IMG/VR virus record: IMGVR_UViG_3300013114_000098
DNA: 64,000 nucleotides
Source: a virus
Reading direction: 5' to 3' (one strand)
In this document: positions 39,045-58,594 of the stretch, in pieces
How the letters are laid out: each line of letters begins with the position of its first letter
Numbering within the stretch: the first letter of the stretch is position 1
The notes under the pieces: model-generated
Told to the model about the DNA's origin: nothing
What the model saw: only the letters and a program-made list of their open reading frames with translations
Database searches by the model: none
Made by a program: the position numbers and the translations under genes

Positions 39045-40270
39045 TACCTTACATAGAACAGAACGAATATTGGAGAGATAATCTCATACTTGAACTACTT
39101 GATTCTAGATATAAGCTGATACAAAGAGATAATGGTGTTTACATACACTGGTGTGAAATTACTAAAGACCCTGACAGCCATGACGCTATACAAGGTAACA
39201 TACTGCCGTTTATTCCTACTAAAGTAATAAACGACTTACGTACAAACGACGCATGTATTGTTTTTAGCACATGGCAAGAAAGTACTAACCCAGTGGATGA
39301 TTATCCAATAGAACATTGTATTGATTTTGACTTAGTATTAGAAAAGTTTTGCGATGATAATAATATACCTTGTCGCAATGTTGTGTGGGTTAGTGGAGAC
39401 TTAAAAGTACAAGAGAGGCAAAAGAGTAAACGTATTAAAGCATATGGATTTACATGCTATGGGCATGATATACTACGACACGTAGAAACTGAGATAGACA
39501 AGACACAATGGAACTTGCAACCAATTACTAAGCGAACGTTTGAAAAAGACTTTATATGCTTACAACGTTTTATGAAGCCAGGTAGAATATACTGGAGTTT
39601 ATTATTGTATAGGAATAACTTTATACATTCACAGTATGTTAGTATTGCAGATAAAATAGCAGGCTGGAGTTTTTTTGAAAAGGCTAAAGCATTTTATTTG
39701 TCAGCAAAGAAACATTATAAACATATGTCTGCTTACAACTTATCGTGCGACCAATACTTTAAAGATATGTGGCATGACTTAGCAGATTTAGGACTTAGTG
39801 TTCCTGTAACAGTAGATGTACAAGACCATGATAAGAATTGGTGTGCAGGTTGGGATACTACATTAAGTAGTTTGGAATTTTATAATAAAAGTTTTGCAAG
39901 TGTAATAACTGAAACAGACATGCAGAGCAATGGATTGTATATTAGTGAAGCTACATTTAGGCCATTTATATATCAACAACCCTGTGTCTGGGCAGGACAA
40001 GCAGGCATTGTTAAGCAATTAAATGATTGGGGATTTAAGACCTGGTCTTGGTTAGCAAGTGAAGATTATGATAATTGTCATTATATGATTGACAGATTAA
40101 ATATGTGCAAGGATAGTTTAATAGAAATGATATCAACAAGTAGAGATAAAAAAGTTTTAGAACGTATACACGAACAAAATATCTATAACTGGAATCATCT
40201 ACAGAATAAATTTGTGGAAGACCAAAGAACTAGATTTATTAAATTGTTAAATGATATTGTAAATAAATAA
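39041..40270 (+). CDS. Hypothetical protein, possibly GT-B-like
   Basis: SVITET...ISEATFRP...GFKT...E.YD C-terminal motif of phage glycan-island proteins; ATGA coupling to the upstream gene. Confidence 0.45.
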   Translation: MIPYIEQNEYWRDNLILELLDSRYKLIQRDNGVYIHWCEITKDPDSHDAIQGNILPFIPTKVINDLRTNDACIVFSTWQESTNPVDDYPIEHCIDFDLVLEKFCDDNNIPCRNVVWVSGDLKVQERQKSKRIKAYGFTCYGHDILRHVETEIDKTQWNLQPITKRTFEKDFICLQRFMKPGRIYWSLLLYRNNFIHSQYVSIADKIAGWSFFEKAKAFYLSAKKHYKHMSAYNLSCDQYFKDMWHDLADLGLSVPVTVDVQDHDKNWCAGWDTTLSSLEFYNKSFASVITETDMQSNGLYISEATFRPFIYQQPCVWAGQAGIVKQLNDWGFKTWSWLASEDYDNCHYMIDRLNMCKDSLIEMISTSRDKKVLERIHEQNIYNWNHLQNKFVEDQRTRFIKLLNDIVNK

Positions 40271-48827: not shown

Positions 48828-49525
48828 AATTAATAATGCCAATGGCAGGACTAGGCAGTCGCTTTACAGAACAAGTTAAACCTTTAATACCTGTAGGAGA
48901 TGTTCCTATGTTTGTACATAGCGAACGTTGCATTGAACTAGACTTTGACGAACGTATATTTATTGTACGCAAAGAACATGATATTAAAGCAAGAGTTCTT
49001 GAATGGTATCCTGATGCAACTGTAATTGAATTAGATTACTTGACAGAAGGCACAGCATGTACTATACTAACAGCACGTGAACATTATGAAGATGGTAGTA
49101 GTATCTTTGTTGCTAATTGTGATCAGCATATAGAATGGGATAGTGATTGGGCTCAGGCTATAATTGATTCAGGTGTTCCTGGATTAATACCTAACTTTCA
49201 TTGTCCAGGTGGCAGTAAGAAGTGGAGTTATGCAATGGTAGACGATAGACAAAACATTAAACGTGTAGCTGAAAAGGATCCTATTAGCGAATGGGCAACT
49301 GTAGGTTATTACTATTGGAAAGACGGAAGACAATTTATACAAAGTGTTGATATGATGATGGAAGCTAACGATAGAGTTAATAATGAATTTTATACTTGTC
49401 CAGTATACAACTACACATTAAAGATACCAGGCATAGGTAATGTCAAACACATAGAAGTAGATGTTATGCAAGGTATTGGTACTCCAGAAGATTTAAAAGA
49501 ATATGAAACAATTTATTGCACATAG
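48824..49525 (+). CDS. Sugar nucleotidyltransferase-like protein
   Basis: PMAGLGSRF, KPLI, TEGTACT, NCDQ, EK and GTPEDL. Confidence 0.85.
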   Translation: MKLIMPMAGLGSRFTEQVKPLIPVGDVPMFVHSERCIELDFDERIFIVRKEHDIKARVLEWYPDATVIELDYLTEGTACTILTAREHYEDGSSIFVANCDQHIEWDSDWAQAIIDSGVPGLIPNFHCPGGSKKWSYAMVDDRQNIKRVAEKDPISEWATVGYYYWKDGRQFIQSVDMMMEANDRVNNEFYTCPVYNYTLKIPGIGNVKHIEVDVMQGIGTPEDLKEYETIYCT

Positions 49526-49940
49526 AGGAAACACAGAAGGTAAGCAACCTGAGTTTGAGAATACTATTGAATACTTAAACCACGCATATGATTTGTGTGG
49601 TGGTATTGAATGTGATATACGAACCTACAATGGCAAACTATATTACGGACACGACGAACCAATAGAGTTAGTAGATACAAATCTCATTAGACAATATCAT
49701 TGGTTCTGTCATGCTAAAGATTTAGAATCCCTATCAACATTAATAGCATTTGGAGCAAATACATTTTGGCATCAAAAGGATACAGTTACAATTACTACTA
49801 AAGGATACATTTGGTGTTACCCACACGTACATCTACAAGACTCACACAGAGCTATCTGGACTGACTTTGATGATGAGTTTACTAGTATGGATCAGATTGG
49901 TGGGTGGGGATTATGCAGTGACCGTCTACCAACTAGTTAA
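49503..49940 (+). CDS. GDPD/PLC-like phosphodiesterase
   Basis: IAHRGN, EN, ECD, GHD, HAK, FWHQ.D and CSD. Confidence 0.75.
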   Translation: MKQFIAHRGNTEGKQPEFENTIEYLNHAYDLCGGIECDIRTYNGKLYYGHDEPIELVDTNLIRQYHWFCHAKDLESLSTLIAFGANTFWHQKDTVTITTKGYIWCYPHVHLQDSHRAIWTDFDDEFTSMDQIGGWGLCSDRLPTS

Positions 49941-50094
49941 TTATAATTGGTAATACCCACAACTTGGCAATTGCCCAAATCAATATAGGACTTATTACAA
50001 ACAATGCAAAGTAAACGTCACGTTGACTTGGCTTAATCCATTTTACTTCCTGTGGGTCTTTGTTAAGATACCTCAATCGTCTTGAACCTTTCAT
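49933..50094 (-). CDS. Small membrane protein (53 aa)
   Basis: AGGAG RBS, ATGA coupling and a hydrophobic C-terminus; below the ORF-track cutoff. Confidence 0.45.
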   Translation of the reverse strand: MKGSRRLRYLNKDPQEVKWIKPSQRDVYFALFVISPILIWAIAKLWVLPIIIN

Positions 50095-50255
50095 CTAAAT
50101 GGTCTCCTGTGATTTAGTCTATGTTCCTCTGCTAATGCTTTCTCAGACTTCCATACATATCGTAGCACAGAAACCCCTAACAATACAATTAGTAACATAT
50201 ATAATATGGGATGTGAATTGAACAATTCGTCGCGAAGTGTAGTTACCCAGTTCAT
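50091..50255 (-). CDS. Small membrane protein (54 aa)
   Basis: ATGA coupling to the DUF2061-like gene; one TM segment. Confidence 0.45.
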   Translation of the reverse strand: MNWVTTLRDELFNSHPILYMLLIVLLGVSVLRYVWKSEKALAEEHRLNHRRPFR

Positions 50256-50461
50256 GATTTAGCCTTTAGATGTTTATACACCTTACCCCATGCACGTTCA
50301 TGCATGAAGTATACCACAAACTTTATAACTGCGTCAATGCTGGCTATACTGCCTGCTATTGTTGCGTTGCCTGTTAGGGCTAACGATATACAGAATGTTA
50401 TAGCAACACTCAATATACGATAGCTAATGCTCTTGTACAAATGTACATGTAATGCTCTCAT
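50252..50461 (-). CDS. DUF2061-like small membrane protein
   Basis: KSISYR...TG...A.SI...K...Y.MHERAW motif. Confidence 0.75.
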   Translation of the reverse strand: MRALHVHLYKSISYRILSVAITFCISLALTGNATIAGSIASIDAVIKFVVYFMHERAWGKVYKHLKAKS

Positions 50462-50595
50462 ATCCTATTCTCTTTTATTAAGTGTATAGTCTTTCCTGAG
50501 GATTCACATATACGTCTTGCTATTAGTATTTAAGTATAACCAGCTCGGTATTAACTTATACTAGTATACCAAGAGTTCTTACCCAATAAAAACAC

Positions 50596-50623
50596 TTGAC
50601 AAATCTAATATAAGTGCTATAGT
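50596..50623 (+). promoter_or_regulatory. sigma70-type promoter
   Basis: TTGACA, 16 bp, TGnTATAGT; ATG 5 nt downstream. Confidence 0.55.
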
Positions 50624-50628
50624 ATAGA

Positions 50629-50847
50629 ATGAAAAATTTACTATTAATATTAATACTTGCAATCGCAACTAGTGGTTGTGCTGTTGTACAATCAGTTACA
50701 AACTTACCACCAAATCCTGCTATATCTTTTGGAAAGAAATGTAGTGTGGACGAAGAAGGTAATGTAGTCTACAGTTCTATTTGGATATACAATAAAGAAT
50801 CTGGACTACAAGCATCCAAAGAAGCCTGCAAAATCCTTAAAAAATAA
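50629..50847 (+). CDS. Small lipoprotein
   Basis: Signal peptide with a lipobox-like ATSGC. Confidence 0.6.
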   Translation: MKNLLLILILAIATSGCAVVQSVTNLPPNPAISFGKKCSVDEEGNVVYSSIWIYNKESGLQASKEACKILKK

Positions 50848-50850
50848 TAC

Positions 50851-50878
50851 TTGACAAATAGCTAATCTGTTGTATACT
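50851..50878 (+). promoter_or_regulatory. sigma70-type promoter with no downstream + strand ORF
   Basis: TTGACA 50851-50856, 16 bp, TATACT 50873-50878. Confidence 0.6.
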
Positions 50879-50885
50879 GTTCTAT

Positions 50886-51185
50886 TGGGCTGTGAGTACA
50901 GGCAGATGCAAACTGTCACCTTTATTATTAAAGCAGGCAAACACAGCACCATTATTTTTTTATAAGGGAATCGCCTTAAAAAACAAAAAATAAGATTCCC
51001 AGACCCTAAGGTGCAAGTTAGGGATATCATATTCTTGCATGTAACTACGTAGTCGAGGCCTGCAGATGTACGTTCTGGTTGGAAGGTTACTCCATAAGAA
51101 CTCTTGCCTTAAGGTATGAACGAATACTTTGTTTGGATTTGATTTGCGAGTGTACCAACCCTTTGAACAGCGAAGCTCTGCACAA
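50886..51185 (+). ncRNA. Candidate structured ncRNA(s): a ~65-nt three-way junction ending in ACCA plus a ~220-nt pseudoknotted domain
   Basis: Promoter directly upstream and no credible ORF. Helices: GCTGTG/CACAGC, GGCAG/CTGTC, GGGAATC/GATTCCC, CCCTAA/TTAGGG with TGCAAG/CTTGCA, TGCAGA/TCTGCA and GGTTGG/CCAACC. Confidence 0.5.
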
Positions 51186-51280
51186 AAAATTTTTTACCCC
51201 CTTATTTTTAACTTATAGAGAATAGACCTAATAGTGTACATAGGTCCTTTGACGGTACTGTATATAGTGAGTAGAATAGT

Positions 51281-51736
51281 TTAAATGAGTCTTAAATGAC
51301 TAGATGTAGTAGTGTATTGCCTTGAGCCTGGACCTAGTATTGTATCCCAATATTCCACTTTACTAATATGTGATTGGAATACTTTCTTATACCAGAGTTC
51401 CGTGTATTGATGTTTAGGATTAAGTATAGTATCCAATCCAACATCCGCAACGTGATCACTCCAATTGAAAGTAGCAAACACGTCAAATAGTTCTCTCACA
51501 CTCAATGAGTTCCAATGATGTACTATTCGTTTTAACTTGAATCCAAAGTCCTCACATACAAGTTCATAGTCTTTGCTTAGTGGATGTACTGCAAATACAA
51601 CCTGACTGTGCCTCTTCTTGTCGTCTAATATTTGATTGTATGGATGTCCCATAGTCACATGTCGATAATCTGCTCCTATACACATTAAGTCGTGTAAACA
51701 AGCGTGTCCGTGTATGTAGTGGAAGTGTGTTTGCAT
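51281..51736 (-). CDS. Hypothetical protein
   Basis: 151-aa ORF with a late-like AATAAATA just upstream on -. Confidence 0.5.
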   Translation of the reverse strand: MQTHFHYIHGHACLHDLMCIGADYRHVTMGHPYNQILDDKKRHSQVVFAVHPLSKDYELVCEDFGFKLKRIVHHWNSLSVRELFDVFATFNWSDHVADVGLDTILNPKHQYTELWYKKVFQSHISKVEYWDTILGPGSRQYTTTSSHLRLI

Positions 51737-51875
51737 ACAGTTATTTATTGTATGGAGCAGACATAAGATGCCGTAGGCGCATGACCTTTTCCTTTACAGT
51801 AAAATGCCGAAAAAATTGCTAGTAAATTTTTTTATATACAAAAGTAAAAATATCAATCTAAATAGCATAATCCTT

Positions 51876-51919
51876 ATAGTGGACATAGTAGAGAATAGTT
51901 AGAATAGTTATAACATAGT
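51876..51919 (+). repeat. Phased ATAGT array (left)
   Basis: ATAGT at 51876, 51885, 51895, 51904 and 51915. Confidence 0.7.
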
Positions 51920-52147
51920 AAAGAACTGTATATCAAGGTCTAATTATATCCCTTGTAGGAACAGTTATTCAAATTGAATAACAATACCTTTCGGTTTACT
52001 TATAGTATACAGAATGATCTTTTGTACAGAATTGTGAAAAAATACAGAATTTTGTTGGGCGCCATTCAAAATTTTCACCGACCTCTAGCTGTGCCATTAG
52101 ACCTCACCGGTTTTGGGAATCTGATTTAATTTTTATTGAATTGTTTT

Positions 52148-52167
52148 TTTTGCATACGTATGCAAAA
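52148..52167. repeat. Perfect 20-bp palindrome
   Basis: TTTTGCATACGTATGCAAAA; the 16-bp core recurs at 53145-53160. Confidence 0.85.
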
Positions 52168-52432
52168 GTCAGAAGGCTAGACACCAAGAAAGATGCCTAA
52201 AGGCTGATATTAAATTATATTAGATTATTATTTCTTCACAAGTCTTCTCTTTGACTCTACCTTAACTAATCTGCTCAGCATAAGTTCATGCTTAATAACT
52301 ATAAGCAATGTACACATACCGGCCCCTACTATTGATAACGTAATAAAGTATTCCATATCGCTTAGTACCAACCCATCTCGATATGCAATACAAGGTTAGC
52401 AATCATCACACCTACTACTAATAGTTCTGACA

Positions 52433-52597
52433 TTACTTGCTCCTCTTAACAGCACTCACAGGCAACTTATAACAACTGCCTGGACATTCAAATACTGTTA
52501 TCCAAGGCCCCTCGACCTTAGTAACAGTTCCCCTTATAGTTCTGTTCGCCGTATTGGTGAACTTAACTGTATCATCAACTGCGATTGCTTTACGCAT
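52433..52597 (-). CDS. Small SH3/KOW-like protein (54 aa), paralog of the C-terminal half of 52590..52883
   Basis: MRKAIAVDDTVKFTNTANRTIRGTVTKVEG...YKLPVSAVK with a GGAGG RBS; not in the ORF track. Confidence 0.55.
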   Translation of the reverse strand: MRKAIAVDDTVKFTNTANRTIRGTVTKVEGPWITVFECPGSCYKLPVSAVKRSK

Positions 52598-52883
52598 TCT
52601 CAACCTCCGCAACTCTTAATAAGCTGGCTGGCACTCTCCATTTGCCCTTACCAGTATCAACTGTAACGTTCTTAATTGCTTTCTTGGTTACAGTTCCTGT
52701 AACTAATACTCCACCACGTCCAGTAAATTCAACGGCATCGCCTACATTAAATGAACTAACTGCTTTCCTTGCAATACGAGTTCTACGTAATTTAATAGCT
52801 TCTACGACTGCATTCACCTGATCGTTAGTCATATTGTGTATTAAACCGAATACATCTGTTAGCATTTTATCTGTTACTGTCAT
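52590..52883 (-). CDS. Small early protein with an SH3/KOW-like beta-barrel
   Basis: FNVGDAVEF..RG...TGTVTK...WRVPASLL; AAGGAG RBS and a consensus promoter upstream. Confidence 0.65.
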   Translation of the reverse strand: MTVTDKMLTDVFGLIHNMTNDQVNAVVEAIKLRRTRIARKAVSSFNVGDAVEFTGRGGVLVTGTVTKKAIKNVTVDTGKGKWRVPASLLRVAEVENA

Positions 52884-52916
52884 AATTGTCGCTCCTTTAT
52901 TGTATAATATAAGTAT

Positions 52917-52945
52917 ATTATAACATAAGATGTCTTGGTTGTCAA
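52917..52945 (-). promoter_or_regulatory. Consensus sigma70 (early) promoter
   Basis: TTGACA, 17 bp, TGnTATAAT; the spacer carries CAAGACATCTTA. Confidence 0.85.
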
Positions 52946-53100
52946 CCAGAACTACCGTTATTGACCTAGATACTTGGCCGAATTGTTAGACATCTTGGTG
53001 AGAACCACGGTGGTTTAGCGTTTATCAATCGGCATTAGCGTGAGATAATAGGTATTATATGCGTATGACATGTCATTATGCGTGGGTTCCATGTTACTTT

Positions 53101-53175
53101 TTGTTGTATTTTTACAACAATTGTTGCAATAATGCGACAATCCGTTGCATACGTATGCAATAGATCTCCGATCTA
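53101..53175. repeat. Four consecutive palindromes/hairpins
   Basis: TTGTTGTA-tttt-TACAACAA, TTGTTGCA-ataa-TGCGACAA, TTGCATACGTATGCAA and TAGATC-tcc-GATCTA. Confidence 0.8.
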
Positions 53176-53254
53176 TCAAAGAATTTAACATAACAACTCA
53201 ATTATGCGTACCGAATTGTAGCGTTTGCGTGGCGGTCCAGCGTATGAATTAGTC

Positions 53255-53291
53255 AAAAGAAACCCGCTAACACGGTCTACATTAGCGGGTT
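53255..53291 (-). terminator. Intrinsic terminator
   Basis: 10-bp stem AACCCGCTAA/TTAGCGGGTT followed by a U-rich tract on -. Confidence 0.65.
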
Positions 53292-53370
53292 GTATAGTTA
53301 GTTAAGGAGCCAACCCCATAACACAAGGGATGGTGACCGTTTTTATACTGTAGATATCCAGCTATCTACA

Positions 53371-53595
53371 TTAATCGCCTGGCGGCTCTGCGGTTTCGTT
53401 ACCAGTTAAGGGAACTAATTCCACTTCAGTGTCCGGATTTGTGGCTTTGACCCGCCTGCGATTACGGGTCCATTGCCCAACTTGAGCTTCCTCAGTATGA
53501 GCACCGGGGTCACATACCGTGATTTTTCCACCACGGGCTAGATATTCTTCTACTGTTTCTTCTTTGTATTCGCTTTTTTCACCTATCAATCGCAC
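53371..53595 (-). CDS. Small acidic protein with a SutA-like RNA-polymerase-binding motif
   Basis: ETVEEYLARGGKITVC resembles the EEFL.RGG.V helix of SutA. It has its own promoter and GGAGG; the true start may be TTG 53589. Confidence 0.5.
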   Translation of the reverse strand: MRLIGEKSEYKEETVEEYLARGGKITVCDPGAHTEEAQVGQWTRNRRRVKATNPDTEVELVPLTGNETAEPPGD

Positions 53596-53617
53596 CTCCA
53601 GGTATTAATTTTTACAT

Positions 53618-53646
53618 AGTATACAACAAAACTACCGCTTTGTCAA
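53618..53646 (-). promoter_or_regulatory. sigma70 (early) promoter
   Basis: TTGACA, 17 bp, TATACT. Confidence 0.75.
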
Positions 53647-53647
53647 T

Positions 53648-53884
53648 CTAAATATCAAGAATTCTTGGTGTATCAATGCTACAACTAAATGATCTGTTAC
53701 GACCTAAGTGTTGCAACTGCGAAATTGGTTCAACATTTCCGCTTATTTGGTCTAATAATTCAATAGTATAGTCTGAAGAACCTCGCAAATAGTCCAAATC
53801 TTCTGCCATTTTAAGCATCACATAAGCTGTAAACAGCATCCAAGCAATGATAAAACACATAAAACCAATTCTTACTACTTTCAT
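53648..53884 (-). CDS. Small membrane-anchored protein
   Basis: Start moved to ATG 53884 (GGAGG RBS); N-terminal TM segment. Confidence 0.45.
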   Translation of the reverse strand: MKVVRIGFMCFIIAWMLFTAYVMLKMAEDLDYLRGSSDYTIELLDQISGNVEPISQLQHLGRNRSFSCSIDTPRILDI

Positions 53885-54262
53885 TTCGGCCCTCCTACAG
53901 ACCCATAGTGGTCGCAAAGCTATGAAAGAACCAATATATACCGATTCCAAGCCCTATTAAAAACAATAATCTCCACATAACTAACCTTTCTAATTATGAT
54001 AGTTATTCACGCCGACCCTTATTACTATCAATTGGGGGCCGAATCCACGTTTACTATTCACAACATTAGTACAGTCCTCCTATTGGAACTGAATGCGTTC
54101 CACAAGAATTCATAAGTATCAGCAATAATAGTATAATTACGCATGATTTATAAAACAAAATGTGGCTCCGGATAGGCACGCGACTGATTTAGTCCTGATT
54201 TAAATATGTTAACTAGTATTACCTGCATATACCACATCTACATTTTCCTGTATTATACTTAC

Positions 54263-54291
54263 AGTATACACGATTTGAACACATTTGTCAA
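54263..54291 (-). promoter_or_regulatory. sigma70 (early) promoter
   Basis: TTGACA, 17 bp, TATACT. Confidence 0.7.
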
Positions 54292-54697
54292 CCGAAATGT
54301 CTTACTTTTTATACACTTTTACCACAATTTTGGGAATAGGTATTGCCCCTGGCAAAGACACCCTAGCAAACCTATGACCATTGTGAATAAAGTGGTGTAA
54401 GTCATTGATTTATATAGGAATTTCGGTTCATAGCGTACAAAACGACCATACTATACGCTATAAAAAGGCCTTCCTGATTTTTTCGAGCCCTTTACCCACC
54501 ACGGTTTTAGAAAAAGAATACCTATTCTAAACCACTCTAAAACAATACCTATTCCCCATACTTCAGGCATTAAAGCATACTCCGTATGCCTTTCCCAACA
54601 TGCCTTCTTCGTTGACAACGTTCTAAGAACTACGACAACGTTGCATAGCACCGTGGTCCAACGGATGCAACGAGCAGACGTTGTTTACTGTATAACC

Positions 54698-54988
54698 ACT
54701 ATTCTCTACTATGTCTAACTATGCTTTACTATTAAAACTATTAGCATTAAGGAATAGCATTGTGGTATTGCTATTATTAATCCTTATACTAAGTTTAATT
54801 ATGTTTAGTAAGATATCTTACTTGTATTCGGCCTAGAACTATGTATTACTATTAAAAGACTTGGACTCACGGAGCAAAGCGGAGCGACGATTTACACACA
54901 AAACTATATCGTTGTTTAGTTTAACTATACTTTAGTGGCCTGGTGGATATTCACTATGTAACTACTATCATTTACTATAAAGAACTAT
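54698..54988 (-). repeat. Phased ACTAT arrays (right; inverted relative to the left ATAGT array)
   Basis: ACTAT at 54698, 54708, 54718, 54728, 54737; 54838, 54848; 54903, 54924; 54953, 54964, 54974, 54984. Confidence 0.75.
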
Positions 54989-55256
54989 GTGAGGCAGATT
55001 TGAGTTGGAGTGGGAGACGCTTTCCATCCCTCGCACGACAACGAAGGACCCTTAAAGGGTAATGAACTCCTAATGATCTTTATGATTTACTAAATGATTA
55101 AGAATAATAGAGGGTGAAAAAAATTTTTGCAGATCTCCGATGGGTATTATTATTCTTCTTAAACTTGCAACCAGAACCAACGAAAACCGTTAAAACAGTA
55201 GTAAAAGGGTATTTGTTTGGAATAGAATAGATGTGGATAAAACATTATGCAGATCG

Positions 55257-55285
55257 TTGACAACCTAGACCTTTTATGTTATATT
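55257..55285 (+). promoter_or_regulatory. sigma70 (early) promoter
   Basis: TTGACA, 17 bp, TGnTATATT. Confidence 0.7.
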
Positions 55286-55334
55286 AACAGAGTAATAAAT
55301 TATTATTACATACACAGACACACAGGAGAGCAAT

Positions 55335-55559
55335 ATGGTTGCAAATAAAAATGCGTATGAGATTCGTACTGAGATACTTAGTATGGCCCAAGGTTTTGTA
55401 ATGTCAAAGTTTGACAATGCACATAGCAAATGGGAGAGCTCAGTGGAAAGACACCCCGAATCGGGTGTTGTTTTATCTACAAAAGACGCACCAAAGTTTC
55501 CATCATCTGATGATATACTTAAAGAAGCTAATAAGTTATATTCATTTGTTGATGGTTAG
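55335..55559 (+). CDS. Hypothetical phage protein
   Basis: NAYEIRTEILSMAQ...FPS..DIL..A.KLYSFV; AGGAG RBS, with its own promoter and terminator. Confidence 0.7.
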   Translation: MVANKNAYEIRTEILSMAQGFVMSKFDNAHSKWESSVERHPESGVVLSTKDAPKFPSSDDILKEANKLYSFVDG

Positions 55560-55568
55560 GAGGAGACT

Positions 55569-55596
55569 AAACCCGGTGTAAAAAGCCGGGTTTTTA
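55569..55596 (+). terminator. Intrinsic terminator
   Basis: AAACCCGG-loop-CCGGGTTT followed by further Ts. Confidence 0.8.
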
Positions 55597-55597
55597 T

Positions 55598-55626
55598 TTG
55601 ACAAGCAAGATATCTTGTGTTATACT
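55598..55626 (+). promoter_or_regulatory. sigma70 (early) promoter with a palindromic spacer
   Basis: TTGACA, 17 bp containing CAAGATATCTTG, then TGnTATACT. Confidence 0.8.
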
Positions 55627-55657
55627 ATGTATATAATTTAATAAAACGGAGTATATA

Positions 55658-55999
55658 ATGGCATTAAACAGTTGGACAGAAGTATTAGTTGAAGCAACAA
55701 ACAAAAAGGATATGACTTATTCATATTCCTTTAAGAATCAAAGAGGTCAACCGATATGGGGTACTAAAGTAAGACCTTTGCCTGGTGCAAGGAACTTTTT
55801 AGTTGGATTAGACTGTAAAAAGAACATAGATTACGATTACACCGCTGATAAAAAGACAGGACAATACTGTTATAAGTTTAAAGAACCAGAGAATGCCTTT
55901 CTATTTAAGTTGTGGTGGGATAAAGATAGTCCTAAGAATGCCAATTCACATACATTTATGCACACTTGTCCAGAGTGTGGGAATCAATTTAAGGATTAA
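55658..55999 (+). CDS. Hypothetical protein with a C-terminal CxxC
   Basis: GGAG RBS; HTCPECG. Confidence 0.6.
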   Translation: MALNSWTEVLVEATNKKDMTYSYSFKNQRGQPIWGTKVRPLPGARNFLVGLDCKKNIDYDYTADKKTGQYCYKFKEPENAFLFKLWWDKDSPKNANSHTFMHTCPECGNQFKD

Positions 56000-56037
56000 T
56001 ATGGTAATTGCATCCGCTATAGGAGACGATTTTGATC

Positions 56038-56220
56038 ATGGCCAAGAATAAAGAACCAACATTAGAAGAAGCCTGGAATGCTATTGTCAAAGGATTAGGT
56101 ATTCTTGTTGATTACCCTAATAAGGTAGTACAGGAATACCTATTAGATGACGAAATAGAAGACGGGAATAGAGATAAACCCAAGAAAGAAAAGAAGAAAC
56201 CCAAAAAAAAGAAGTTATAA
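56038..56220 (+). CDS. Hypothetical protein with a basic tail
   Basis: ORF with an upstream GGAG; Lys-rich C-terminus. Confidence 0.45.
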   Translation: MAKNKEPTLEEAWNAIVKGLGILVDYPNKVVQEYLLDDEIEDGNRDKPKKEKKKPKKKKL

Positions 56221-56339
56221 ATGGATAAGTTGTATACAATTTTTGGATATTTAGGAATTGCAGTTGCTATATGCGTTCTTATATATCTAGTTGCTACTGG
56301 TAATCTACTGCATTACCTATTATAGTAGGAGAATAAACT

Positions 56340-56609
56340 ATGAGTAAACTATATGACAAAGCAATAATGGCCAATGTAGCCAGGACTGAAATATCTGGTA
56401 AATACAATACAAAATGGACACCAGATGCTATTAAGATCCATAATAAGAATAAACAAGACGAAGAGCTGGAAAACAGAGCTACTTTGGAATGTATTGTATG
56501 TGGATCAGTATTACATGGAGAAGAACCACGAATCCAAATCGTTTGTGATGATTGCAAAGATGTAAGGTTTTCACCATTGCCACCAATGAGTCCTTTTACT
56601 AACAAATGA
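56340..56609 (+). CDS. Small zinc-finger-like protein
   Basis: CIVC...CDDC; AGGAG RBS. Confidence 0.55.
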   Translation: MSKLYDKAIMANVARTEISGKYNTKWTPDAIKIHNKNKQDEELENRATLECIVCGSVLHGEEPRIQIVCDDCKDVRFSPLPPMSPFTNK

Positions 56610-56670
56610 AACATTTAATAATAACAATTGCAATTATAACCATAATTGTATTAATAACAGGATTTGCAAT

Positions 56671-57036
56671 ATGATTAATACTTGCCTAAGTTTAGCACTT
56701 GCACTAGGATTCCATTTAGGATTGGAAGGCAATTACAATAATGTACATCCACATCTTAGATGTGATATTAATAATACAATAGCAGGAGTGTATTATAATA
56801 GTGAAGAAAAGATATCTGCATATGTTGGCTACCAATTCGATACCCCATTTGATTCAACATTAGAAGTAGGTTGGGTAACAGGTTATCCCGAATACCACAC
56901 AAGACATGGATTAGATATTGTACCTATGTTGAGATTAACTAAAGGCAATTGGTATCTAGCACCTGCTTACGAAGTAGCACCTGATAAAAATTGGGGTATA
57001 ACTTTAGGATATGAATTTAAAATAATGGGAAATTGA
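56671..57036 (+). CDS. Secreted/outer-membrane beta-strand protein
   Basis: Signal-like N-terminus, alternating aromatic strands (AGVYYNS, AYVGYQF) and C-terminal GITLGYEF. Confidence 0.5.
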   Translation: MINTCLSLALALGFHLGLEGNYNNVHPHLRCDINNTIAGVYYNSEEKISAYVGYQFDTPFDSTLEVGWVTGYPEYHTRHGLDIVPMLRLTKGNWYLAPAYEVAPDKNWGITLGYEFKIMGN

Positions 57037-57195
57037 AATGGGAAAGAGACAAATACCGTTTGTAATAGTTGCGAGAGGCAAGAAACCATCCAAGAAACAT
57101 ATGAGTCATGGATCGTTTAGATGTAAACGACACCCTAACAGTAAAAGATGTAACAATGGTAGTATGTAATTCTGGAAAAGTGATTGGAGAAAATA

Positions 57196-57462
57196 ATGTT
57201 TAGACTAGAAGAAAGAATTATGGATTGCTGGAGAGTAGTAGATGATATTAAAGTTATCTATGAAGAACACTTAGATTCTCCAGAACAAATGAGTGAGGAT
57301 GAGATGGCTAATATTCTACTGGGTCTTAGCACATTATACAACCGTAAGTTCGACAGATTATTCACCGAGTTTGAGAAAGTATGTAGACACGGAGGCATAT
57401 TCTTAGACAAAGACTTGGTTGAAGTTGCGAAGCAACAAATGCAATGTCAGATGAAGAAATAA
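57196..57462 (+). CDS. Hypothetical phage protein
   Basis: FRLEERIMDCWRVVDD...ANILLGL..LY..KF; GGAG RBS before ATG 57196. Confidence 0.55.
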   Translation: MFRLEERIMDCWRVVDDIKVIYEEHLDSPEQMSEDEMANILLGLSTLYNRKFDRLFTEFEKVCRHGGIFLDKDLVEVAKQQMQCQMKK

Positions 57463-57570
57463 GGGATTTTATAGAATATTTTGGAGATGAAATACCAAAC
57501 CCCGACCAATATCCATTAAAAGTTAAGTGGTTAATAAAATGGTATATCTCAATTGTTTTAAGGAATAAGT

Positions 57571-57819
57571 ATGAAAACGAAAACAGAAATAGATAAAGCG
57601 TTCGAACCAAAGGATAATTGTAGTATCTGTGACAGCCCATATGACGCTGATGCAGGTGGAATACAAGGACACTTTGGTATAATGCCTGTTACCTTTTGTG
57701 AATGGTGTGCAAGTAGCATTTACGATATGGTTTATCAAGACGTAAAAGAAGAAGTTATTGACCAATATAAAGAATGGCAGTTAAATAACCCAGAACCCTG
57801 TGGAATGAGTCATAAATGA
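57571..57819 (+). CDS. Small zinc-binding protein
   Basis: CSIC...GIMPVTFCEWC. Confidence 0.55.
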   Translation: MKTKTEIDKAFEPKDNCSICDSPYDADAGGIQGHFGIMPVTFCEWCASSIYDMVYQDVKEEVIDQYKEWQLNNPEPCGMSHK

Positions 57820-58088
57820 AGAACTTTACAGTCATTTGGGAAGTTAACTACTATGATGCTGAAAAGGTATTCTTTGTACCAGAAGGAAATACCGCAGAAG
57901 ATTTAGATGAATTGCTGGACGAATTGGGTGAGAATGCAATAGATCACGAACCAGAAGTTGAAACACCAACCGGTCTAGGAGACTTTGACATTGAATGGAT
58001 TAGGATTTTAGATGAAGACGACAATGAGGTTTGGAGAGATGAATACTACGATTTTAAAAACAAAGATTGGTTAGAATATATAAAATGA
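57816..58088 (+). CDS. Acidic hypothetical protein
   Basis: ATGA coupling; very Asp/Glu-rich. Confidence 0.5.
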   Translation: MKNFTVIWEVNYYDAEKVFFVPEGNTAEDLDELLDELGENAIDHEPEVETPTGLGDFDIEWIRILDEDDNEVWRDEYYDFKNKDWLEYIK

Positions 58089-58309
58089 CAGATGATTATG
58101 AAAAAGAACAAGAATTACCAACAATTACAAACGATCAAGGAATGACAACAATGATTCTTAATTCTTTAAACTTTATGTGTGCCGGTGAATCACCACCAAT
58201 GGATCATCCTCATGTTTACTTAACATTTGGAAACCTAAAGGAAATGAATTGTCCCTATTGTGGGACAAGATTTGTGTATAAACCTAGAATAAAAGGTAAT
58301 AATGAATAA
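58085..58309 (+). CDS. zf-CHCC zinc-finger protein
   Basis: C.G....DHPHVYL......CPYCGTRF. Confidence 0.8.
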   Translation: MTDDYEKEQELPTITNDQGMTTMILNSLNFMCAGESPPMDHPHVYLTFGNLKEMNCPYCGTRFVYKPRIKGNNE

Positions 58310-58594
58310 AACAAAGATTATGCCAGTATTAGTATTGTGCTGTATTTTTATTAGTGGTTGTGAGCTATTAGAAAAAATGCAGAAAGATGCCGCAGAAGCA
58401 GGATTAGATGTAGACTGCAATGTGCATCCTCAAACTGAATATTGTGCAAGTAAAGAAGCAGAAGCTACTTTATTATAGGAAAATAAAATGAGAAAAAGTA
58501 AGAAGATCTGTATAGCTATCTTGGCTATAATACCACCCGGCTTAATATGGTTGTATTTTTATTTAGATAGCATAATTAGACCTATCTTTATAAC

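What the first reader, a model, noticed from the sequence alone, without database searches (positions are those of the whole stretch)
51177..55133. Mirror-symmetric 4-kb region with inverted, helically phased repeat arrays: candidate genome terminus, packaging locus or origin
Seen: (1) ATAGT every 9-11 bp at 51876-51919, and its complement ACTAT every ~10 bp at 54698-54741, 54838-54852 and 54953-54988. (2) An exact 18-bp inverted repeat, GACATAGTAGAGAATAGT (51882-51899) / ACTATTCTCTACTATGTC (54698-54715). (3) An outer imperfect ~35-bp inverted repeat TCTGCA..AAAAATTTTTT.ACCC at 51177-51211 and 55098-55133, whose midpoint (~53155) falls on the palindrome at 53145-53160. (4) The coding strand switches, and five consensus sigma70 promoters diverge from 54.3-55.25 kb. 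Known: short-repeat arrays flank the T7 terminal repeat, and 10-bp phasing places protein sites on one DNA face. Inference: terminase or initiator binding arrays bracket a collapsed terminal repeat or an origin that carries first-expressed genes.
Basis: partly seen in the sequence, partly recalled or inferred. Interest (0 to 1): 0.78.

Follow-up and report, generated by a model that had tools for sequence, protein, structure and literature searches.

The report
Phased ATAGT arrays at early-gene hub
An uncultured marine giant phage has arrays of the 5-letter word ACTAT/ATAGT, spaced one per DNA turn, on both sides of its first-expressed genes; they are conserved, occur nowhere else in the DNA sampled, and the same word marks the genome ends of its nearest cultured relative, so they may mark where the genome is cut and packaged.

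Summary
ATAGT x5 (51876-51919) and ACTAT x5, x2 and x4 (54698-54988) are the only pentamer arrays at 8-12 bp spacing in the 64-kb window. None of 300 simulated sequences reached 4 copies.

The arrays are conserved. Relative L164, about 75% identical, has 21 co-oriented ACTAT in the same promoter-free spacer. The spacers between copies differ but the core is kept. No such array occurs elsewhere in about 220 kb of related genome.

Most of the rest of the "mirror symmetry" is ordinary. It comes from inverted copies of early sigma70 promoter modules (PeSL-like), a conserved A/T-box module, and operator palindromes. The midpoint coincidence is not conserved in relatives.

The arrays are best read as sites for an oligomerising DNA-binding protein, one protomer per helical turn (about 0.8).

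Their role is unproven. I favour a packaging or terminal-repeat boundary signal (about 0.4). The closest cultured TerL relative, PA5oct, has fixed ends with a 39-kb terminal repeat. Its only phased ATAGT array and its densest CTATAGT cluster lie next to the two repeat boundaries. An oriE-like origin (about 0.15) and local early-gene control (about 0.2) remain open.

The parts
51876..51919 (+). Left array: ATAGT x5, spacing 9, 10, 9, 11. It is the inverted copy of right array 1.
   Evidence: L163 has only 2-3 copies at the homologous place.
51216..51280 (+). Loose outer-left cluster: ATAGT at 51231, 51264, 51276, plus degenerate copies.
54698..54741 (+). Right array 1: ACTAT x5, spacing 10, 10, 10, 9. 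It ends in ACTATTAGCATT. L164 has 8 copies here.
54838..54852 (+). Right array 2: ACTAT x2.
54899..54929 (+). Conserved block D with two ACTATA 21 bp apart. It is present in L164 and, inverted, in L151.
54953..54988 (+). Right array 4: ACTAT x4, spacing 11, 10, 10.
54292..55256 (.). 965-bp gene-free spacer between the divergent early promoters. It holds 14 ACTAT and 0 ATAGT. The homologous spacer in L164 holds 21 and 2.
54469..54541 (+). Most conserved block of the spacer, 93% identical in L164. It overlaps a possible micro-ORF that ends SSPLPTTVLEKEYLF.
54772..54812 (.). 85% A+T stretch directly after array 1. It is a candidate easily melted region.
51177..51203 (-). Left A/T-box module (the outer inverted-repeat arm). 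It is conserved in L163.
55113..55140 (+). Right A/T-box module (the outer inverted-repeat arm). It is conserved in L164, L151, L147 and L149. A third, degenerate copy at 55226-55255 abuts the -35 of the 55257 promoter.
   Evidence: (D2)
53145..53160 (.). Perfect palindrome TTGCATACGTATGCAA, exactly conserved in L163 and L164. A second copy lies at 52150-52165.
54807..54822 (.). Palindrome with the AAGAnnTCTT core. The same core lies in or next to the early promoters at 50571, 52927, 53657 and 55607.
52917..52945 (-). Consensus early promoter TTGACA-17-TATAAT with an upstream TG.
53618..53646 (-). Early promoter TTGACA-17-TATACT.
54263..54291 (-). Early promoter TTGACA-17-TATACT. It forms the left edge of the array spacer.
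55257..55285 (+). Early promoter TTGACA-17-TATATT. It forms the right edge of the array spacer.
55598..55626 (+). Early promoter directly behind the terminator at 55569-55593. This is a PeSL-type terminator-promoter cassette.
49941..58594 (.). 8.6-kb island of small early-type genes inside the glycan-tailoring operon. It is absent from relative L005 and syntenic in L163 and L164.

Best explanation
The ACTAT/ATAGT arrays are cis-acting DNA sites for a protein that binds head-to-tail, one protomer per helical turn, and so coats one face of the DNA. The locus carries 13-23 co-oriented sites in a roughly 1-kb gene-free spacer, plus a smaller inverted array 2.8 kb away. It is a single genome-level site set inside the phage's immediate-early promoter hub. 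I think the most likely role is a packaging or terminal-repeat boundary signal recognised by the terminase. On that reading the region next to or between the arrays is where concatemers are cut, and the strong host-type promoters beside it sit near a physical genome end, as in jumbo phage PA5oct. Shown: the arrays exist, are phased, are non-coding, are conserved with a selected core, are unique to the locus, and evolve in concert between left and right. Inferred: that a protein binds them, and which process they serve. About 0.8 for protein-binding arrays; about 0.4 for the packaging or terminus role.
For: Non-random and unique. Phasing of 10 bp, which is not a multiple of 3, so the repeats are not coding. 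Strand bias of 14:0 in the window and 21:2 in L164. Conserved core with divergent spacers and variable copy number (5 against 8). Left and right arrays share an exact 18-mer in the window, while L163-left and L164-right share a different exact 17-mer, which points to concerted evolution or pairing. No Rfam hit and no excess RNA folding in the flanking modules. Packaging link: the TerL of relative G005 is 54% identical to PA5oct TerL. PA5oct has a 39,080-bp direct terminal repeat rich in early genes (PMC7318152; record annotation). PA5oct's last 235 bp before the repeat start hold 5 co-oriented CTATAGTR, against a genome mean of 1 per 4.8 kb. PA5oct's only phased ATAGT x3 array in 287 kb lies 269 bp beyond the repeat end; my estimate of the chance expectation is about 0.19 per genome. 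A/T-run promoter-like modules and rightward small early genes follow directly in both phages. Both large IMG/VR contigs that carry the island end between the two arrays, and G005 ends 292 bp before array 1.
Against: There are no reads, so no ends or 2x coverage could be seen. The window's own assembly runs straight through. The arrays are inverted here but direct in PA5oct. PA5oct's terminal cluster is not 10-bp phased. Four other jumbo phages of the TerL neighbourhood have no ATAGT arrays. L151, L147 and L149 keep the A/T-box but carry a gene where the arrays should be. The contig ends of L163 and L164 fall at featureless, non-homologous points, typical of assembly breaks in a hypervariable region. 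The terminase is a T4 gp17 homologue, a family best known for headful packaging without fixed ends. No small terminase or other binding protein was identified. ATAGT also resembles a -10 hexamer (TATAGT).
Confidence: 0.4

Rival explanations
1. Local transcription control. A small winged-helix or ribbon-helix-helix regulator (Cox/Apl/Xis/BldC-like or OmpR/ArcA-like) polymerises on the arrays to activate, silence or insulate the neighbouring early promoters.
For: The arrays sit in a hub of early promoters and operator palindromes. One protomer per 10 bp on direct repeats is typical of such proteins (PMC11963761). The left array lies about 49-92 bp upstream of a conserved -10-like block in front of the 151-aa gene. 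Copy number is labile, and the arrays are lost where gene content changes.
Against: The arrays overlap no strong promoter: array 1 is about 400 bp and 520 bp from the two flanking ones. The right arrays have no gene downstream before the next strong promoter. A regulator of early genes should have sites at other early regions, yet none occurs in 121 + 38.7 + 64 kb. No DNA-binding fold was recognised among the island proteins.
Confidence: 0.2
2. Replication origin of the T4 oriE or iteron-plasmid type. The evenly spaced repeats bind an initiator or accessory protein next to an A+T-rich stretch, early transcription activates the origin, and the inverted array acts as a control (handcuffing) partner.
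For: [quoted passage not shown] An 85% A+T stretch follows array 1. The window's single perfect DnaA box is at 55232-55240. This is the largest gene-free stretch I saw in the ORF lists of the window, and the arrays are unique to it. From my own knowledge: inverted iteron sets flank genes in F and P1.
Against: A 5-bp core is shorter than any known initiator iteron. No initiator gene was recognised. The DnaA box lies in a 48-bp segment absent from L164. Cumulative GC skew shows only a local dip, and the main switch in the window is near 9 kb. The role of the T4 iterons themselves is unproven (PMC3016281).
Confidence: 0.15
3. RNA-level element. ACUAU repeats in outward transcripts bind an RNA-binding protein or form a regulatory leader or non-coding RNA.
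For: The motif lies on the sense strand of outward transcription on both sides. A weak TATACT -10 follows array 1 in both the window and L164.
Against: There is no strong promoter upstream of the arrays in either genome, no terminator, no Rfam match and no excess folding in the flanking modules. A 10-bp period is a DNA-helix property.
Confidence: 0.07
4. No function. The arrays are slippage-generated short tandem repeats or decayed promoter fragments in a hypervariable region.
For: Copy number varies, and the arrays are absent from some relatives. ACTATG also follows the -10 of two early promoters.
Against: The core is exact in every phased unit while the spacers are unrelated. The arrays persist in lineages about 75% identical. 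The strand bias is extreme.
Confidence: 0.05

Closest known systems
Terminal-repeat boundaries of Pseudomonas jumbo phage PA5oct (MK797984.1; Lood et al. 2020, PMC7318152)
   Same: TerL is 54% identical. The genome has about 33% G+C. ATAGT-core repeat clusters are unique to the two repeat boundaries. A/T-run promoter-like modules and many small early genes follow directly.
   Different: The PA5oct clusters are in direct orientation, and the larger one is not 10-bp phased. Its repeat is 39 kb. Nobody has shown that its clusters are terminase sites. Here the arrays are inverted, 2.8 kb apart, and the ends are unknown.
Short-repeat arrays beside the T7 terminal repeat, and pac sites with flanking repeats (SPP1 pacL/pacR, P1 pac); recalled from my own knowledge
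   Same: Short repeated words flank the place where terminase acts, and protein binding is thought to bend or loop the DNA.
   Different: Those sites span about 100-300 bp and lie near the terminase genes. Here the arrays are 2.8 kb apart and about 95 kb from terL.
T4 oriE iterons (review PMC3016281)
   Same: Evenly spaced short direct repeats lie in an early-transcribed region at a transcriptional divergence, and small early genes lie within the region.
   Different: The T4 repeats are 12 nt, and their function is unproven. No RepEA or RepEB homologue was found here.
Filament-forming winged-helix proteins on phased direct repeats (P2 Cox, 186 Apl, lambda Xis, BldC, RdfS; PMC11963761)
   Same: One protomer per roughly 10 bp, head-to-tail, with a short core and a variable number of sites.
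   Different: Those arrays lie at attachment sites or overlap promoters. No such protein was recognised here.
PeSL promoter-terminator cassettes of T4-like hyperplastic regions (PMC2839356, PMC4122927)
   Same: This explains the repeated, inverted early promoter modules, the terminator-promoter unit at 55569-55626, and the island's presence or absence among relatives.
   Different: PeSLs do not include phased pentamer arrays.

Membership tests
Terminal-repeat boundary / packaging recognition arrays | Fixed physical ends, or a 2x coverage step, next to the arrays | not testable with these tools
Two relatives' contigs end between the arrays, but at featureless points.
Terminal-repeat boundary / packaging recognition arrays | The terminase belongs to a lineage that makes fixed ends with direct terminal repeats | tested here: inconclusive
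   The nearest cultured TerL (54%) is PA5oct, which has a 39-kb terminal repeat (PMC7318152). The protein is also a T4 gp17 homologue, and two neighbours in the list are deposited as circular records.
Terminal-repeat boundary / packaging recognition arrays | The same repeat word lies at known ends in a relative | tested here: met
   PA5oct has 5 CTATAGTR in the 235 bp before the repeat start, and its only phased ATAGT x3 array lies 269 bp after the repeat end.
Terminal-repeat boundary / packaging recognition arrays | Conserved in all close relatives | tested here: not met
   Present in the window and L164, reduced in L163, and absent from the fetched parts of L151, L147 and L149.
Iteron-type replication origin | Evenly spaced direct repeats next to an A+T-rich stretch | tested here: met
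Iteron-type replication origin | Initiator gene next to the iterons | tested here: not met
   No Rep, RepE or replication family was found among the island proteins.
Iteron-type replication origin | Compositional skew switch at the site | tested here: not met
   There is only a local dip that follows the minus-strand genes.
Winged-helix / RHH filament operator arrays (Cox, Apl, Xis, ParR) | Short direct repeats, one per helical turn | tested here: met
Winged-helix / RHH filament operator arrays (Cox, Apl, Xis, ParR) | Cognate small DNA-binding protein encoded nearby | tested here: inconclusive
   No HTH or RHH hit was found. The 97-aa protein folds as two helices plus an SH3/Tudor-like barrel.
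PeSL regulatory cassettes | A terminator stem-loop followed by an early sigma70 promoter, repeated in a variable region | tested here: met
   The cassette is at 55569-55626. Promoter modules are 80-87% alike in both orientations. The island is absent from L005.

The most novel reading that the evidence does not exclude
Helically phased ATAGT arrays are the terminase recognition signal of a lineage of jumbo phages that includes PA5oct and this marine phage. Here an inverted pair of arrays brackets a short terminal repeat that carries the first-expressed genes, and pairing of the two arrays, seen as concerted evolution, sets the cut sites.
Probability: 0.25. Interest if true: 0.72.

Novelty: new variant of a known kind. 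Interest (0 to 1): 0.55.

Why it matters
How jumbo phages with long terminal repeats choose their genome ends is unknown, and no packaging signal has been defined for the PA5oct group. If the ATAGT arrays are that signal, ends of uncultured giant phages could be predicted from sequence. Metagenomic genomes could then be oriented correctly, and the first-injected gene set could be read off directly. If the arrays instead mark an origin or an early-gene switch, they still give a concrete, conserved DNA bait for fishing out the binding protein. In either case, the PA5oct parallel can be tested at once in a cultured system.

Tried and rejected
- Coding repeat: rejected, because a 9-11 bp period puts the core in all three frames, and the ORFs across the arrays differ between the window and L164.
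- Mobile element with terminal inverted repeats: rejected. There is no transposase and no target duplication, and the island is syntenic in L163 and L164.
- Single mirror axis through the 53145 palindrome: rejected as coincidence.
- Structured RNA in the A/T-box modules: z-scores were +0.8 and +1.1. Rfam gave nothing.
- The 151-aa gene as the array-binding protein: unlikely. Its homologue in L001 sits inside a radical-SAM/glycan operon without arrays.
- Candidate binder among the island proteins: none was found. The 97-aa protein is a DUF7205/MscS-beta-like barrel (AlphaFold pLDDT 93, no PDB hit below E 1e-3). The 74-aa protein carries a SutA-RBD-like motif.
- DnaA-box cluster: 22 matches against 25.8 expected, with one perfect box.
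- The exact 18-mer and the phased pattern in IMG/VR: only chance hits or unrelated tandem repeats, none homologous to the window.
- The original T4 oriE paper (PMC94188) is not held.


Full report
**Context.** The window has about 33% G+C and comes from an uncultured marine jumbo myovirus with T4-like core genes. It carries gp46/gp47-type nuclease subunits and baseplate wedge proteins. Earlier notes of this scan place terL about 42.6 kb before the window's start. There is no megablast match among cultured phages, and no whole genome is held for the window.

- ATAGT occurs at 51876, 51885, 51895, 51904 and 51915.
- ACTAT occurs at 54698-54737 (5 copies), 54838 and 54848, and 54953-54984 (4 copies).
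- Among all pentamers these are the only arrays of 4 or more copies at 8-12 bp spacing in the window.
- None of 300 second-order Markov simulations of 64 kb exceeded 3 copies.
- In 375 kb of other marine phage loci, the only comparable arrays were two true tandem repeats.
- The period is 10 bp (R=0.91). That is not a multiple of three, so the repeats are not coding.
- The 965-bp spacer 54292-55256 holds 14 ACTAT and 0 ATAGT, where about 1.9 of each is expected.
- The exact 18-bp inverted repeat is confirmed. It is part of about 45 bp of inverted homology.

**What surrounds the arrays.** Seven of the strongest sigma70-type promoters found in the window (TTGACA, 16-17 nt, TATAnT) lie between 50.6 and 55.6 kb. 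Each drives one or a few small genes, and some stand directly behind a terminator (55569-55626). This is the promoter-terminator cassette (PeSL) architecture described for hyperplastic regions of T4-like phages (PMC2839356, PMC4122927).

In relative L005 the glycan-tailoring operon runs straight from the homologue of the 49.5-49.9 kb gene into a radical-SAM gene and the carbamoyltransferase. So window 49941-58594 is an 8.6-kb island of early-type genes.

The highest-scoring inverted matches in the region are these promoter modules. They account for a good part of the "mirror symmetry".

The region is also dense in operator-like palindromes:
- TTGCATACGTATGCAA occurs twice. The copy at 53145 is exactly conserved in two relatives.
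- AAGAnnTCTT occurs seven times in the window, all between 48.99 and 55.6 kb, and mostly in or beside early promoters.

**The outer inverted repeat.** Within the window it is weak. Its core, GGGT, an A6-7T4-6 run, then (GT)GCAGAnCTYCGnT, recurs in L164, L151, L147 and L149 on the right side, and in L163 on the left. A third, degenerate copy abuts the -35 of the 55257 promoter (D2). I therefore read it as a promoter-upstream (UP-element-like) module. It has no excess RNA structure. The coincidence of its midpoint with the 53145 palindrome does not hold in relatives.

**Relatives.** Two IMG/VR contigs carry the island in synteny at about 70-80% nucleotide identity.
- L163 (121 kb) covers window-equivalent 48.2 to 54.385 kb.
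- L164 (38.7 kb) covers 52.815 to 59.2 kb.

In L164 the spacer between the same two divergent promoters has 21 ACTAT in the window's orientation and 2 in the other. Array 1 has 8 units there against 5 in the window. Both arrays are preceded by AGACGTTGYTTACTGTA and end in ACTATTAGCATT, while the spacers between units differ. The core is therefore under selection and copy number drifts.

The left array is reduced to 2-3 units in L163.

No array of three or more units occurs elsewhere in the 121-kb or the 38.7-kb contig, nor elsewhere in the window. The locus is therefore unique in roughly 220 kb sampled.

The left and right arrays of the window share an exact 18-mer. L163-left and L164-right share a different exact 17-mer. 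That suggests homogenisation between the inverted arrays. L163 and L164 are different genomes, so this is suggestive only.

Metagenome contigs L151, L147 and L149 keep the A/T-box and a neighbouring conserved block, but carry a minus-strand gene where the arrays would be. The arrays are therefore dispensable or relocated in that lineage.

**Role: what changed my reading.** I first discounted a genome end, because the terminase of the island-bearing relative is a full-length T4 gp17 homologue, and T4 itself is circularly permuted (PMC3016281).

The nearest cultured phages by that TerL are PA5oct-type jumbo phages (54% identity). PA5oct has fixed ends with a 39,080-bp direct terminal repeat that carries 105 genes, many highly transcribed early (PMC7318152; record annotation).

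I read the PA5oct record and found the following:
- The last 235 bp before the repeat start hold five co-oriented CTATAGTR. The genome as a whole has 60 such sites in 287 kb.
- The first 250 bp of the repeat hold three modules of an A/T run plus TGCTATATAGG, followed by rightward small genes.
- The only phased ATAGT x3 array of the whole genome lies at 39349-39372, which is 269 bp beyond the annotated repeat end. My estimate from base composition is about 0.19 such arrays per genome by chance.

The same pentamer, which is unique to one locus in the marine phage, is thus tied to both terminal-repeat boundaries in the nearest cultured relative. The order of elements is also the same: arrays, then A/T-run modules, then early genes.

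Both large IMG/VR contigs break between the two arrays, and L163's contig ends 292 bp before array 1. The break points are featureless, however, and fit assembly breaks in a variable region equally well.

Four other jumbo phages (1.69 Mb) have no such arrays. The word is therefore not general to the TerL neighbourhood.

**Weighing.**
- Protein-binding arrays, one site per helical turn: about 0.8.
- Packaging or terminal-repeat boundary signal: about 0.4.
- Local early-gene control by a filament-forming regulator: about 0.2.
- oriE-like origin: about 0.15.
- RNA-level element: about 0.07.
- No function: about 0.05.

Against the favoured role:
- The orientation is inverted here but direct in PA5oct.
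- The arrays are missing from L151-type relatives.
- There are no read data.
- No binding protein was identified.

The island's conserved small proteins gave no DNA-binding assignment. The 97-aa protein belongs to a large viral family and folds as two helices plus an SH3/Tudor/MscS-beta-like barrel. The 74-aa protein has a SutA RNAP-binding-domain-like motif below Pfam's cut-off.

**Verdict.** The arrays are a real and conserved cis element. It can be tested directly in PA5oct.

Noticed in passing
window 48991-55616 (seven sites): The palindrome core AAGAnnTCTT occurs 7 times in the window, all inside the early region. It fills or abuts the spacers of early promoters, and it is kept in L164, L151, L147, L149 and L146. 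It is a likely operator of a dimeric early-gene repressor.
   Followed up: partly
window 53145-53160 and 52150-52165: The perfect 16-bp palindrome TTGCATACGTATGCAA occurs twice. The 53145 copy is exactly conserved in L163 and L164. A split version, TTGCAT-N18-ATGCAA, lies at 54641-54670.
   Followed up: partly
window 53371-53595 (-): A 74-aa early protein has a strongly conserved core, EYLARGGKITVC...QVGQWTRNRRR. It matches the SutA RNA-polymerase-binding domain below Pfam's cut-off (E 3e-5). It is a possible host RNA polymerase modifier.
   Followed up: partly
window 52590-52883 (-) and 52433-52612 (-): Two adjacent genes behind the consensus promoter look like paralogues. The 97-aa one is DUF7205/MscS-beta-like, belongs to a family with 703 representatives, and folds with AlphaFold pLDDT 93 as two helices plus an SH3/Tudor-like barrel. 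Its function is unknown.
   Followed up: partly
window 54405-54530 (+): A possible micro-ORF ends SSPLPTTVLEKEYLF. The three differences from L164 in this stretch are all synonymous third positions, but the start is not conserved.
   Followed up: no
window 55232-55240 (-): The only perfect DnaA box (TTATCCACA) of the window lies 17 bp upstream of the -35 of the 55257 promoter. It sits in a 48-bp segment absent from L164.
   Followed up: partly
window 51281-51736 (-); L001 9989-10432: The His-rich 151-aa protein (HFHYIHGHACLHD) has a homologue embedded in a radical-SAM/glycan operon of another phage. It probably belongs to the glycan-tailoring set rather than to the early genes. Its cluster holds truncated variants of 115-143 aa.
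   Followed up: partly
L164 3293-3688 (-): In the relative, the gene behind the rightward early promoter is a 131-aa protein with a weak HNH_3 endonuclease match. It is a likely homing-type insertion.
   Followed up: no
PA5oct MK797984.1 39112-39200: Directly after the annotated terminal-repeat end, PA5oct has GTCTATAGGTTC x3 and ACTTATAAGYCACTTTC x2-3 tandem units. I saw no mention of these in the passages of the PA5oct paper that I read.
   Followed up: partly
L157 2235-2996: ACTAT recurs about every 60-85 bp over 760 bp upstream of the 113-aa gene homologue in a more distant relative. This could be a longer-period repeat or a coding repeat.
   Followed up: no
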